A stretch of DNA of 27,933 nucleotides, taken from contig CAZGJX010000050.1 of assembly GCA_964525635.1 (NCBI GenBank), positions 1-27,933 of the forward strand. Reading direction: 5' to 3'. Under the pieces are notes generated by a model that saw only the letters and a list, made by a program, of their open reading frames with translations, was not told where the DNA came from and made no database searches. The DNA is from an uncultured archaeon (GTDB lineage Archaea; Asgardarchaeota; Lokiarchaeia; Sigyniarchaeales; SOKP01). Of this stretch, positions 1 through 11,507 are shown in pieces; position 1 is the first letter of the stretch; each line of letters opens with the position of its first letter. The position numbers and the translations under genes were made by a program.

Positions 1-33
1 ATTATGGTTTTGGAAGTATAAAAAAAAAGTGAT

Positions 34-1484
34 TGCTTAACTTAATGACATTGCTTTAAGGAGGGGATGAATTGAGCACAACTGTAAATATTAATAAATT
101 GTTAGGGTCTTCTTATATTTAATGGATCTCCCATATTTTTCATAGGAATGTTGCTATCACAAAAAATACGAATATATCCATCAGAGAAGCAAGAACAACT
201 TCTATGGATCTTCTCTGAAAAATGTCGTCTTATTTTTAATTTTGCGTTAGCACAGCGAATTGAGAATTGGAAAGAAAATAAAAAGAAACCAAAAGAAGAG
301 CGTACGTATATTACCTATAATGACCAATCAAAATATCTCCCATTATTGAAAGAACAATATACAGAATATCGATGGGTGTATTCGAAAGTTTTGCAAACCA
401 CCCTTGAAAAACTCAAACGAGATTATAACTCCTTTTTTTCTCTATGGAAAAAGGGAGATACAACAGCACGACCTCCACGATTTAAGGGGAAGAACTATTT
501 TAATACACTCTGTTATAATCAATCTGGATTTAAAATAGAAGAGAATTCAATCACCTTTTCTCATAAGCATCCTTCAAAACTACCACTTCAATTTACCCTA
601 CTTCCTCATCTTATTCCACAAGAGAAGATAAAACAAGTAGAACTTTTTCAGTCTAATAAGAAATGGTTTATATCAATTACCTATGGCTTTAAGCCTCCAA
701 AATATTTTAATAATTCTTTATATCAAGCATTTGATGTAGGAATTCATCAAACTGTTGGAGTAAATATAGGAGGAAAATCAATTCATTTTAGAAATCGAAG
801 AGCAGATCTCTATTGGAAAAAAAAGATTGAACAAATGCAATCAAAACGAGATCATTGTAAGAAGTATAGTAAGAGGTGGAATTGGTATCACCAAAAATTA
901 TCCAAAATGAAAAGAAAATGTACTTATCAACTCAGAGACTATCAGCACTGGCTTTCACATCAAATTAATGAAAATACGAAAGCTAATACAATTATAGTAG
1001 GAAAATTAAAGGTAAAACAAATAGTAAAAAAGAAGAAACGTACAGGGAACGCTAAAACAAATAAACAGAAAAAAACACTAAATCATTCAGTTCAAAACAC
1101 AGGATTTATGTCTCGATTTATACAATTCTTAACCTATAAAGCAGAAAAAGTAGGTAAAAGAGTAATAAGAATTGATGAATCAAATACATCCCAAGTTTGC
1201 TGTAATTGTGGAAAAAAAAACAAAAGAGCTATTTACGAAAGAGTTATTATTTGCGCTTGTGGAAATCATATTGACCGAGATATTAACTCAGCAATTAATA
1301 TTATGGTCAAATTTCTTTTGCGTAAAAAAGAGCATACCTATGATTTCCTATCGCATCAACCCTCTGTGAACGAGGAATCATTCCTAGAGCAATGGGATGG
1401 TTTTCTACGATATACAGACCAATCCGTAGTAGAAGCGATTGCGCACTCGTAGGAAGCTGCAACCTTTAGGTTGTAGTAGTTCAG
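34..1484 (+). mobile_element. IS200/IS605-family (IS1341-like) non-autonomous element: left end, tnpB, right end; no TnpA
   Basis: tnpB ORF. Left-end motif TGCTTAA..TTAAGGAGGGGATGAATTGAGCA (34-77). Right-end hairpin GCTGCAACC-TTTA-GGTTGTAGT (1456-1477) followed by AGTTCA(G). Both ends are shared with the second copy at 9505-9786. Exact boundaries are inferred. Confidence 0.8.
148..1452 (+). CDS. tnpB: RNA-guided endonuclease TnpB (rearranged RuvC-II type)
   Basis: N-terminal KIRIYPS..Q HTH_OrfB motif, PRFK motif, RuvC-I AFDVG, TSQVCCNC..CACG zinc finger, RuvC-III DRDINSAINI. Confidence 0.95.
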   Translation: MLLSQKIRIYPSEKQEQLLWIFSEKCRLIFNFALAQRIENWKENKKKPKEERTYITYNDQSKYLPLLKEQYTEYRWVYSKVLQTTLEKLKRDYNSFFSLWKKGDTTARPPRFKGKNYFNTLCYNQSGFKIEENSITFSHKHPSKLPLQFTLLPHLIPQEKIKQVELFQSNKKWFISITYGFKPPKYFNNSLYQAFDVGIHQTVGVNIGGKSIHFRNRRADLYWKKKIEQMQSKRDHCKKYSKRWNWYHQKLSKMKRKCTYQLRDYQHWLSHQINENTKANTIIVGKLKVKQIVKKKKRTGNAKTNKQKKTLNHSVQNTGFMSRFIQFLTYKAEKVGKRVIRIDESNTSQVCCNCGKKNKRAIYERVIICACGNHIDRDINSAINIMVKFLLRKKEHTYDFLSHQPSVNEESFLEQWDGFLRYTDQSVVEAIAHS

Positions 1485-9352: not shown

Positions 9353-9508
9353 ATGGTCCGTTCATTTACTATAGGTGAAAAAGCAAAACAAATTGACCAA
9401 AAAAAAATTGGAGATCGAATGAAAATTCGAAGAAAAACTATAGGAAAAATAATAGCTACAATAATTATCTATTTTTTAACTATGGGTATATTCTCTTTCT
9501 TTCTGTGA
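9353..9508 (+). CDS. Small (51 aa) C-terminally membrane-anchored protein; stop codon supplied by the inserted element
   Basis: MVRSFTIGEKAKQIDQKKIGDRMKIRRKTIGKIIATIIIYFLTMGIFSFFL*: basic N-terminus plus one TM segment. The TGA lies inside the element right end. Confidence 0.5.
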   Translation: MVRSFTIGEKAKQIDQKKIGDRMKIRRKTIGKIIATIIIYFLTMGIFSFFL

Positions 9509-9648
9509 ACTATAAACAGTCTAAAGACCGTTGCCCCCTACGAGTACACAACCACTTCTACTACGGGTTGGCCTGTTTATCGTAGAAAACCATTCCATCA
9601 TATTAGGAATGATTCCTCGTTCACAGAGGTTTCATGTGATAAGAAATT
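9485..9648 (-). ncRNA. Stand-alone TnpB omegaRNA; putative guide AGAAAGAAAGAGAATATACC
   Basis: Homology to the tnpB 3'/right-end region with compensatory changes in the terminal hairpin; GTGAAC/GTTCAC pseudoknot pairing. Confidence 0.7.
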
Positions 9649-9786
9649 GAATTTTTAACAGTATTCAATTTCCTTCCTAATTTATTAACATAGAATTACT
9701 GAAAAAATGTAAGATTCTTATGATTTACTAAATTTTTTTTCAAACTTAATTCATCATCTCCCTAAGAGGAGGTATTTTCTTGAGCA
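9505..9786 (-). mobile_element. Non-autonomous IS200/IS605 mini-element (PATE/MITE-like): left end, omegaRNA and right end, no ORF
   Basis: Minus strand begins TGCTCAA..TTAGGGAGATGATGAATTAAG (cf. 34-77) and ends with ~144 nt about 78% identical (manual alignment) to 1342-1484, terminating TAGTTCAC. Confidence 0.85.
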
Positions 9787-9906
9787 ATTATGATAAATAA
9801 AAAATTACTTAATTAATTCTGTTTTATTTTTTAATAGATTAGGTTTTATAATTAAAAAAAAAATAAGATTAATTCATTTTTGAAAATAGAATTTGAATTT
9901 AATAAG

Positions 9907-9999
9907 GGCCTTTGTCGGTTAGAGTGGTCTCTGACGCTGGGCTTCAAACCCAGTTATCCTGCGGAGGGATAGCGGTTCGATTCCGCACGAAGGCCGCCA
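9907..9999 (+). tRNA. selC: tRNA-Sec (UCA), archaeal/eukaryal 9/4 fold, CCA encoded
   Basis: 9-bp acceptor GGCCTTTGT/ACGAAGGCC, 7-bp D stem with 4-nt loop, anticodon TCA at 9944-9946, long variable arm, 4-bp T stem GCGG/CCGC, G discriminator plus CCA. Confidence 0.96.
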
Positions 10000-10130: not shown

Positions 10131-11507
10131 GTGTTTAGTTTGGTAGATCTAAATAAAATCATTGATTATTTTAAAGAATCTAAAATCCCAGAAAGTATAT
10201 TAAATAGAGGAAGAATAGTATTAAAAGATTATATCACTCCAATAAAGGTTTTATTAGAACAGAAAGGAGTGCCTGATAATCCATGGAATGATGAGAAAAT
10301 TGAGTTTTTTCTGAATATATTATCTCAAATGGATACAGATAAAGATGAAAAAGCTGCAAAAGTAGGAGAAAGAGAAGCTAGAATAGCATCAAGCATACAA
10401 TTAAAACTTTCTGCTGGTTTTTGTCATGGAATTGGAAGGAGTGGTAGCTTAAATGCACCTCAACCTAAAGCTTCTGGAAGTTCAATTTTGTATGAAATAA
10501 CGAATTATCTTGCTAGAGATATTATGAGAAAGTTTGGTTTACCAAATATTAAAGCTGCTATAATAGTACCAGTTGCTACTGGAATGGCTTTAGCTTTAGT
10601 TTTATCTGCATTTAAACCAAATTTGGAAAATAAAGATACTTCAAATAAAAGAAAAGTGTTGATTCCTCAATTAGATCATAATTCAATTTTAAAAGCTATT
10701 GTTTTTTCTGGTTTTAAACCAAAAATAATAGAGGGAAAAATTTTTGGTGATGCTGTACGCGTTCCTATTGAGGATATAAGAGCATCATTCGATAGTGAAT
10801 GTTTTGCAATATTATCTTTTACTAGTTTTTTTCCTCCAAGAGAGGCTGATGATATAAAGGAAATAAGCAAACTAGCTGATGAAAAAAATCTTGTTCATAT
10901 TATAATTAATGCTTATGGTGTACAAAGTCCTGAGTGGATGAAATTAATCCGTTCTGCTATAGATTCGGGAAGAGTTGATGCAATAATTCAATCTACCGAT
11001 AAGAATTTTCTAACTCCCGTAGGAGGAGCTTTAATTGCTTCTCCAGTTGAAGAAAAAATTCATATTATTAGTAACGCATATCCGGGCAGAGCATCTTCCT
11101 CCCCTATTGTTAATTTTCTTGTCTCTATTTTATCCTTAGGATATAAAGGATATGATAAATTAATAAAGACTCAACAGGAAAATCGTAAGCTTTTAGAAGA
11201 AGAACTTGGAAAAGTTGCAGAAGTATTAAATGAAAGATTATTGAATATCTCTAATCCCGTTGCTGTAGCATTAACATTAAAAAATTTGGAGAAAGACGAA
11301 TTATATGCTTTAGGTGGAGCTTTATATAACCTTAGAGTAACTGGTCCAAGAGTTTATGATCCTCAACAAAATCCATTTGGTACTTGCACAAAAATATATC
11401 CTACACCTTATATAGTTATGAATGCTGCTATTGGATCATCAACAAAGGATATAAAAAAAGCTGTAAAAAGATTTAAAAAAGCCTATTCTCAAATTATAAA
11501 AAATTAA
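10131..11507 (+). CDS. spcS: O-phosphoseryl-tRNA(Sec) selenium transferase (SepSecS)
   Basis: GEREAR, FCHGIGRSG..QPKASGSS, P.ATGM, NAYGVQ, PLP-lysine QSTDKNF, YPGRAS; directly downstream of tRNA-Sec. Confidence 0.96.
   Translation: MFSLVDLNKIIDYFKESKIPESILNRGRIVLKDYITPIKVLLEQKGVPDNPWNDEKIEFFLNILSQMDTDKDEKAAKVGEREARIASSIQLKLSAGFCHGIGRSGSLNAPQPKASGSSILYEITNYLARDIMRKFGLPNIKAAIIVPVATGMALALVLSAFKPNLENKDTSNKRKVLIPQLDHNSILKAIVFSGFKPKIIEGKIFGDAVRVPIEDIRASFDSECFAILSFTSFFPPREADDIKEISKLADEKNLVHIIINAYGVQSPEWMKLIRSAIDSGRVDAIIQSTDKNFLTPVGGALIASPVEEKIHIISNAYPGRASSSPIVNFLVSILSLGYKGYDKLIKTQQENRKLLEEELGKVAEVLNERLLNISNPVAVALTLKNLEKDELYALGGALYNLRVTGPRVYDPQQNPFGTCTKIYPTPYIVMNAAIGSSTKDIKKAVKRFKKAYSQIIKN

What the first reader, a model, noticed from the sequence alone, without database searches (positions are those of the whole stretch)
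9485..9790. Protein-free mini-element carrying a stand-alone TnpB omegaRNA, 8 kb from its cognate tnpB
Seen: the reverse complement of 9505-9648 aligns to the tnpB 3' end/right end (1342-1484) at about 78% identity by hand, including a 26-nt exact block CCTCTGTGAACGAGGAATCATTCCTA. The terminal hairpin is almost fully rewritten but still pairs (TGCAACC-TTTA-GGTTGTA vs AACGGTC-TTTA-GACTGTT). The CTACGA/TCGTAG stem and the GTGAAC/GTTCAC pseudoknot are retained. The other end (9786 downwards) resembles the left end at 34-77, no tnpB coding sequence is recognisable in between, and both copies share a TTAATAAATT box (91-100; 9688-9679), which here sits about 30 nt before the scaffold. Known: TnpB omegaRNAs derive from the IS200/IS605 right end and take their guide from the flank. 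Inference: a ~280-bp mobile guide cassette expresses its own omegaRNA (guide AGAAAGAAAGAGAAUAUACC) and loads a TnpB in trans, giving a one-nuclease/many-dispersed-guides system in an Asgard archaeon. The hairpin covariation could reflect selection on the DNA end recognised by TnpA, on the RNA, or both.
Basis: partly seen in the sequence, partly recalled or inferred. Interest (0 to 1): 0.85.

Follow-up and report, generated by a model that had tools for sequence, protein, structure and literature searches.

The report
Gene-less mini-transposon carrying TnpB guide RNA
This is a real 288-base gene-less jumping element of an Asgard archaeon that carries only a shortened guide RNA for a DNA-cutting enzyme (TnpB) made elsewhere; the kind is already described, but here comparison of many copies shows that the RNA fold itself is being preserved by selection.

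Summary
Window 9792-9505 (minus) is a 288-bp ORF-less IS605-type element (PATE): TAM TTTAT, end TTCAC, no target duplication (empty sites of two sister copies). It has 7 copies in this genome, about 50 recent ones in a congener, and was found only in this Promethearchaeota genus. It keeps the tnpB upstream region and the whole omegaRNA. Selection on the RNA is supported: between mini subfamilies 0 of 65 scaffold stem columns change, against 9 of 36 unpaired and 15 of 67 spacer columns, and the pseudoknot covaries across genera. Its 5' hairpin is a covarying long-range stem of the tnpB coding tail, with the 62-68-nt inner domain cut to 9-12 nt. Most likely it borrows TnpB to cut its own empty site and be copied back. 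Corrections: the shared TTAATAAATT box is chance, window 1-57 belongs to another IS, the 8-kb proximity means nothing, and the guides have no common target. It sits on the stop codon of a 51-aa gene, leaving the protein unchanged. Expression was not testable; no Y1 TnpA was found in this assembly. The kind is published (Meers 2023; Altae-Tran 2023), and this scan found it before in other Asgard genomes.

The parts
9505..9792 (-). Whole mini-element (omegaRNA-coding PATE), 288 bp
   Evidence: Boundaries from sharp conservation edges in >40 copies and from empty orthologous sites of two sister copies
9793..9797 (-). TAM TTTAT, host DNA, outside the element
   Evidence: 19 of 19 left ends scored read TTTAT; retained in an empty site
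9745..9792 (-). Left end: DNA guide AAGA/AAAA (9781-9775), subterminal hairpin (9775-9756), conserved ATGAATT(G/A)AG
   Evidence: guide-to-TAM pairing rule from IS608 (own knowledge; principle)
9699..9707 (-). Candidate TATA-like box (consensus TTTTTAAG; TTTTTCAG in this copy), about 22 nt before the 5' stem, in the position of the box before the tnpB start codon
   Evidence: Positionally conserved in the subfamilies, as TTTCTTAAG in A1; promoter function is inferred, genome calibration was weak
9642..9673 (-). P0, 5' stem-loop (10 bp, 12-nt loop); shortened homologue of the long-range stem 1261-1270 / 1339-1348 of tnpB
   Evidence: Compensatory changes in coding and mini copies; folds in both contexts
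9615..9629 (-). P1 hairpin whose loop GTGAAC forms the pseudoknot with the terminal GTTCAC
   Evidence: double-sided covariation across genera
9588..9614 (-). P2 hairpin, invariant stem, variable loop
   Evidence: 4 of 10 pairs with changes on both sides
9536..9587 (-). P3 stem (9587-9580 with 9543-9536) enclosing P4 (9570-9549)
   Evidence: P4 covaries; P3 97.6% paired but without double-sided change, and RNAalifold offers an alternative partner for its 3' arm
9505..9538 (-). Right end: DNA guide (GGGG here, GAAG in 48 of 61), terminal hairpin 9532-9515, TEM TTCAC 9509-9505
9485..9504 (-). Predicted guide, host flank; antisense to the last 7 codons of the 51-aa gene
   Evidence: Follows TTCAC; no TTTAT+guide target in the genome
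9353..9508 (+). Host gene for a 51-aa membrane micro-protein; its stop codon TGA is supplied by the element (empty allele CTA TAA, filled CTG TGA)
   Evidence: Homologues in 20 of 40 family genomes; all 11 examined end at residue 51; filled and reconstructed empty alleles give the same protein
148..1452 (+). tnpB, 434 aa, rearranged RuvC-II (D196, G285, E344, D378), intact Zn finger; one of two intact family copies
   Evidence: Pfam, invariant columns in 44 homologues, dN/dS 0.26 against the C1 copy
1261..1484 (+). omegaRNA of the tnpB element, from the P0 5' arm to the altered end TTCAG
1..57 (.). End of an unrelated IS (DDE-type family) inserted in the left-end hairpin loop of the tnpB element
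   Evidence: Same end on 10 other places, all at TTTA/TAAA-type hairpin loops; a complete relative encodes PF01609

Best explanation
A non-autonomous IS200/IS605 derivative (PATE) that parasitises two proteins in trans. A Y1 TnpA recognises its end hairpins and moves it as ssDNA to TTTAT sites without duplication (shown by boundaries and empty sites; the enzyme is inferred). The retained tnpB promoter region starts an RNA at about the place of the former start codon, which is now the 5' stem of a shortened (~170-nt) omegaRNA scaffold that runs out into the flank (start site inferred). A family TnpB loads this RNA; when TnpA excises the element, TTTAT is joined to the flank, the RNP cuts that empty site and recombination restores the element (mechanism shown for Geobacillus elements, inferred here). 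Copies with a working scaffold therefore persist and multiply, which is the selection seen on the fold. The guide serves the element, not the host. This particular copy is ageing (altered right-end DNA guide and TATA-like box, no TnpA found in the assembly); odds that it is active today are about even.
For: 7 copies in the genome, about 50 at ~96% identity in G002, more in G001/G003; TTTAT/TTCAC ends and scarless empty sites; stops in the former frame in 33 of 36 minis, so protein coding does not explain conservation; between subfamilies A1/A2/A3 0/65 stem columns differ against 9/36 unpaired (p 4.5e-5) and 15/67 spacer (p 2.6e-5), while variants within subfamily A1 fall evenly (1.19 vs 1.25 per 100 letters); 93.6% of cells paired, 12 of 44 pairs with double-sided changes, 7 of them outside the terminal hairpin; pseudoknot covariation across genera; P0 kept with both arms while its inner domain was deleted; this copy's paired-site changes keep pairing 6 to 1, against 9 to 18 in A1 copies (p 0.03); no excess of right ends without scaffold in G002 (101 right-end hairpins, 120 scaffold motifs); two intact tnpB genes with an active-type site; an intact Y1 tnpA with a similar left-end hairpin in the congener with the burst; mechanism and PATE precedent in 10.1101/2023.03.14.532601.
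Against: No Y1 tnpA in this 245-contig assembly. The promoter is only a weakly TATA-like box, mutated in this copy. Subfamilies were defined by eye and tree and are related, so p-values are optimistic; a cruder shared-versus-private test gave only p 0.055. Most double-sided changes separate coding from mini or coding from coding copies, not minis from each other. TnpB TAM and loading are untested.
Confidence: 0.75

Rival explanations
1. DNA-only relic: the element spreads through TnpA alone; the scaffold is carried along, or matters only as ssDNA structure during transposition, and no functional RNA is made.
For: No expression data; old decayed copies exist (7 copies with broken stems); private mutations break stems freely; PATE-type deletions are common in archaea.
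Against: Loops and spacer diverge between subfamilies while stems 40-170 nt inside the right end do not; a second deletion spared both P0 arms; many tolerated changes are G-U wobbles. TnpA is known to need only the subterminal hairpins (own knowledge, IS608).
Confidence: 0.12
2. Decoy or competitor: the RNA binds TnpB (or TnpA) and mainly titrates it, damping the activity of full elements, rather than guiding cuts at its own empty site.
For: Would also keep the fold; competition for TnpA was proposed for an expressed Halobacterium PATE RNA (PMC4615843).
Against: Does not explain why the element itself would gain copies; the scaffold ends exactly at the boundary that yields a usable guide and TAM.
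Confidence: 0.07
3. Host domestication: the copy is kept as a guide or antisense RNA that regulates a host gene (here the 51-aa gene it abuts) or targets foreign DNA.
For: The guide is antisense to the 3' end of a conserved gene and the insertion is protein-silent; this copy differs from the A1 consensus at 2 of 65 scaffold stem columns but 13 of 82 end-core columns; no TnpA found.
Against: No mini-element was seen at this site in the congeners where the region could be read (it is broken by contig ends; G002 has other family insertions there); every copy has its own flank as guide; no TTTAT+guide match in the genome or in IMG/VR; TnpB has an active-type site, unlike nuclease-dead repressors; only 4 of 70 insertions sit on such stop codons.
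Confidence: 0.06

Closest known systems
omegaRNA-coding PATE-like elements of Geobacillus stearothermophilus (ISGst1/ISGst5-related; Meers et al., 10.1101/2023.03.14.532601)
   Same: Gene-less, both IS605 ends, omegaRNA said to need TnpB in trans; same motif pair as ISGst2 (TAM TTTAT, TEM TTCAC); scarless insertion
   Different: Archaeal (Promethearchaeota); partner TnpB has a rearranged RuvC-II; many copies allow a test of selection on the RNA; the scaffold is internally shortened at P0
Stand-alone omegaRNAs of OMEGA systems (described in PMC10691335, citing Altae-Tran 2021)
   Same: Mobilised guide RNA gene without effector or transposase in a genome that has effectors; shown there to work in trans
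   Different: The experimental case concerned IscB as far as I recall (original paper not retrievable); function here is untested
PATEs of Haloquadratum walsbyi, especially HqIRS71 (PMC3119063), and the expressed PATE RNA VNG_R0052 of Halobacterium salinarum (PMC4615843)
   Same: Archaeal, no inverted repeats, near-terminal palindromes, no target duplication, too short for a transposase; HqIRS71 keeps a disrupted tnpB C-terminal segment; hairpins are hit by other mobile repeats
   Different: Described before the guide-RNA role was known; most are terminal-only fusions without a full scaffold
TnpB2 / RIIr-type TnpB (TvTnpB, PMC10530073; RIIr-5, PMC10691335)
   Same: RuvC-II glutamate replaced by glycine with an invariant alternative glutamate downstream
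   Different: Gap is 59 residues (a lysine-rich insert of about 11 relative to ISDra2) rather than about 45; clade number not assigned here

Membership tests
PATE (IS200/IS605 non-autonomous element) | Near-terminal palindromes related to an IS605-type element, no terminal inverted repeats | tested here: met
   Hairpins 9775-9756 and 9532-9515 align to the ends of full tnpB elements
PATE (IS200/IS605 non-autonomous element) | No transposase or other ORF | tested here: met
   All three sense frames are broken by stops; tblastn finds only TnpB residues 398-434; no ORF of 70 aa on either strand
PATE (IS200/IS605 non-autonomous element) | Insertion 3' of a fixed 4-5-nt motif without target duplication | tested here: met
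   TTTAT 19/19; two empty orthologous sites of sister copies; the empty site of this very copy was not found
PATE (IS200/IS605 non-autonomous element) | Mobilised in trans by a Y1 TnpA | tested here: inconclusive
   None in this assembly; intact tnpA with similar left-end hairpin in G002; activity not testable
TnpB omegaRNA (reRNA) | Scaffold overlaps the tnpB 3' end and stops at the right-end boundary, guide from the flank | tested here: met
   Conservation ends at TTCAC in 51 of 62 ends, all flanks differ
TnpB omegaRNA (reRNA) | Conserved fold with terminal hairpin and pseudoknot to the 3' end | tested here: met
   no Rfam family matches
TnpB omegaRNA (reRNA) | Is transcribed | not testable with these tools
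TnpB omegaRNA (reRNA) | Binds TnpB and guides TAM-dependent cleavage | not testable with these tools
   Needs biochemistry
TnpB2 / RuvC-II-rearranged TnpB (partner protein) | G or P at the canonical RuvC-II position, conserved alternative E, intact RuvC-I and III aspartates | tested here: met
   D196, G285, E344, D378 invariant in 44 homologues; spatial closeness not modelled
Domesticated guide (TldR-like regulator) | Nuclease-dead partner and a guide conserved across orthologous loci with a TAM-flanked target | tested here: not met
   Active-type site; no conserved locus seen and no target

The most novel reading that the evidence does not exclude
The cassette is at an early stage of host use: with TnpA gone and its end signals eroding, its RNA is still kept folded and acts, alone or with TnpB, on the conserved 51-aa gene whose 3' end is its guide, so that dispersed minis form a regulatory or defensive guide repertoire in an Asgard archaeon.
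Probability: 0.06. Interest if true: 0.75.

Novelty: new member of a known kind. Interest (0 to 1): 0.36.

Why it matters
The role of stand-alone omegaRNAs is called unknown in PMC10691335, and trans use of PATE omegaRNAs by TnpB was proposed rather than measured in the passages read. This family gives population-level evidence that gene-less copies are selected for the RNA fold, which fits selfish retention, and supplies a ready test set: intact TnpB, TAM, a native full-length scaffold (~225 nt) and a naturally shortened one (~170 nt) that drops the hairpins overlapping the RuvC-III codons. That is useful for defining the minimal guide of RuvC-II-rearranged archaeal TnpBs. It is not a new kind of system.

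Tried and rejected
Rfam: no family for the scaffold. Shared-versus-private variant test: only p 0.055, blurred by recurrent changes. Genome-wide promoter calibration: only a weak TATAAA rise at -30 to -28, not enough to validate the box; the sigma-70 scan is at chance level and not suited to archaea. Empty site of this copy: no exact match in JGI metagenomes. Guide targets: none in the genome for this guide, only chance-level AT-rich hits for three others; none in IMG/VR. TTAATAAATT as promoter: rejected. Contig C85 as the missing half of the window's tnpB left end: rejected, both abut the same IS end. General preference for stop codons: 4 of 70 against 0.9% of all TTTAT sites (p 0.004), but not significant against an assumed 3% among tolerated sites (p 0.16). 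A loose regex census of single-hairpin elements was uninformative. Altae-Tran 2021 could not be retrieved.

Full report
Observation. The reverse complement of the finding matches the 3' end of the tnpB element: 132 nt at 80%, the best inverted repeat in the window, E 6e-29 by BLASTN. The RNA folds better than all 200 shuffles (z -3.6). Three details are wrong. The element runs 9792-9505. Bases 1-57 of the window are the end of another IS sitting in the loop of the tnpB left-end hairpin, so only 58-77 of the quoted left end is real. The shared TTAATAAATT box is not homologous in position, is absent from the sister copies and occurs 397 times in the genome.

Copies and ends. The genome holds seven minis of about 290 bp (C50, C42, C4, C170, C9, C61, C153; 74-81% identical to this one) and three full tnpB elements, two with intact frames and one with a stop at codon 43. 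All three congeners carry minis; G002 has about 100-120 family ends, roughly 50 of the A1 mini type, 96% identical on average. The mini junction pattern occurs in GTDB only in these three Promethearchaeota genomes among the 30 hits returned. Left ends follow TTTAT in 19 of 19 scored, right ends read TTCAC in 51 of 62, and all 62 flanks differ. Two G001 copies have empty orthologous sites in G003 that join the TAM position directly to the right flank with no duplication (one has TTGAT). This is the IS605 signature.

Anatomy. After the left end comes a spacer that aligns with the tnpB upstream region up to the start codon. A TTTTTAAG-type box lies about 22 nt before the first stem in the subfamilies, the spacing of an archaeal TATA box; it reads TTTTTCAG in this copy and its function is an inference. 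The first stem, P0, is not new: in full elements positions 1261-1270 pair perfectly with 1339-1348 (5 in 20,000 shuffles), and the two arms change together in relatives (GGAAATC/GATTTCC, GGTCATC/GATGACC). The stem closes a 50-68-nt domain that spans the RuvC-III codons. Minis keep both arms with new compensatory sequence and a loop of 9-12 nt. Then follow P1 with the pseudoknot loop, P2, P3/P4 and the terminal hairpin. The pseudoknot covaries across genera: GTGAAC/GTTCAC, TTGAAG/CTTCAA, ATGAAC/GTTCAT. Over 36 sequences 93.6% of cells pair and 12 of 44 pairs change on both sides, 7 outside the terminal hairpin; slid controls give 36-43%. P3 has no double-sided change and RNAalifold proposes another partner for its 3' arm, so it is the least certain helix.

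Selection on the RNA in gene-less copies. The former frame is broken in 33 of 36 minis. Among the related subfamilies A1, A2 and A3, none of 65 scaffold stem columns outside the TnpA hairpin differs, against 9 of 36 unpaired and 15 of 67 spacer columns (p about 3-5e-5). New variants inside A1 fall on stems and spacer alike. So mutation hits the stems, but lineages that went on to multiply kept them. This copy's changes at paired sites keep pairing 6 to 1. Caveats: related sequences, hand-made subfamilies, and a cruder test at p 0.055. Old copies do decay, as expected for a selfish element.

Proteins. The window's TnpB has D196, G285 in place of the canonical RuvC-II glutamate, E344 and D378, all invariant in 44 homologues, the pattern of active rearranged TnpBs (PMC10530073; PMC10691335; one RII-r5 orthologue active in PMC10278001); dN/dS against the second intact copy is 0.26. 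Its element is immobilised at the left end and ends TTCAG, and nothing ties the mini to it more than to the other copies (81-85% to all three), so the 8-kb distance carries no meaning. No Y1 tnpA was found in this assembly (100% marker completeness but 245 contigs). G002, where the burst is recent, has an intact tnpA whose left-end hairpin resembles this family's.

Guide and site. TTTAT plus this guide occurs nowhere in the genome or in IMG/VR; its only target is the empty site. The element sits on the stop codon of a conserved 51-aa membrane protein gene (9353-9508): CTA TAA becomes CTG TGA and the protein is unchanged (lead from e1-5620983). The RNA is thus antisense to that gene's last codons, probably a by-product. 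No mini was seen at this site in congeners, where contig breaks limit the view; G002 has independent family insertions in the same interval.

Mechanism and standing. Shown: mobility, ends, fold, constraint on the fold, an active-type TnpB in the genome. Inferred: transcription from the retained promoter, loading of TnpB in trans, cutting of the empty site and restoration by recombination, as demonstrated for Geobacillus elements. Meers et al. state that PATEs often encode omegaRNAs that need TnpB in trans; Altae-Tran et al. describe stand-alone omegaRNAs that work in trans; archaeal PATEs and an expressed PATE RNA are known. The scan has reported the same kind in other Asgard genomes, twice with a tnpB-internal hairpin; these notes are not independent evidence, and I found P0 before reading them. 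Verdict: a real, well-supported new member of a known kind; its added value is the selection test and the naturally shortened scaffold. Interest 0.36.

Noticed in passing
window 1-57; G000 C26, C36, C57, C85, C113, C125, C133, C212, C218 (end type GCAATGTCATTAAGTTAAG) and C9, C31, C52, C72, C84, C113, C124, C153, C157, C168 (end type CAGTACCGAGTATTTTT): Two IS families insert almost only into the TTTA loops of IS605-type end hairpins (about 26 ends), with an apparent 4-bp TTTA duplication; complete copies of 1.3-1.5 kb exist (C36 encodes a PF01609 DDE transposase; C52 and C113 ORFs have no Pfam hit) beside 52- and 124-bp derivatives. This recalls the SMR-A repeats of Haloquadratum whose mobilising enzyme was unknown (PMC3119063) and may supply a candidate type of enzyme.
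   Followed up: partly
window 9353-9508 (+): Unannotated 51-aa membrane micro-protein family, no Pfam match, in 20 of 40 family genomes, three paralogues in this genome, strict length of 51 aa in the 11 homologues examined.
   Followed up: partly
window 9907-9995 (+) and 10131-11507 (+): tRNA-Sec (Rfam RF01852, 59.9 bits) directly upstream of SepSecS; in G001 and G002 the tRNA locus looks lengthened or rearranged in its 5' part and was missed by the family search.
   Followed up: no
G002 L119, L120, L104 (C7, C59, C35): A second amplified deletion family joins about 44 N-terminal codons to the last ~55; it lost the original P0 5' arm, and N-terminal codons can pair in its place, but the fold is not better than shuffles.
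   Followed up: partly
G002 L070, L081, L121: A third deletion family joins the left end straight to the tnpB C-terminal region, keeps the whole omegaRNA including P0 but lacks the promoter spacer.
   Followed up: no
G000 C17:11732-11680 (-), C52, C72, C113: Single-hairpin elements of another IS605 family (TTTAC ... TAGTTCAA) with a left-end 5' arm and a right-end 3' arm, like the 52-bp terminal-only PATEs of Haloquadratum.
   Followed up: no
G010 L063 (C47:34204-35493): The only family tnpB of that genome is intact (61% identity) but its omegaRNA ends in an AT-rich hairpin unlike the family right end, with TTGAAC/GTTCAA pseudoknot halves kept; a possible immobilised copy.
   Followed up: no
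G000 C137:8942-8992: A lone 51-bp right-end hairpin with TEM, without scaffold, next to a zinc-finger ORF.
   Followed up: no
window 9538-9535 (-) and G002 L002: Both copies share the GAAG to GGGG change in the right-end DNA guide at different loci, so this variant probably still transposed; the change keeps RNA stem P3 through G-U pairs.
   Followed up: partly
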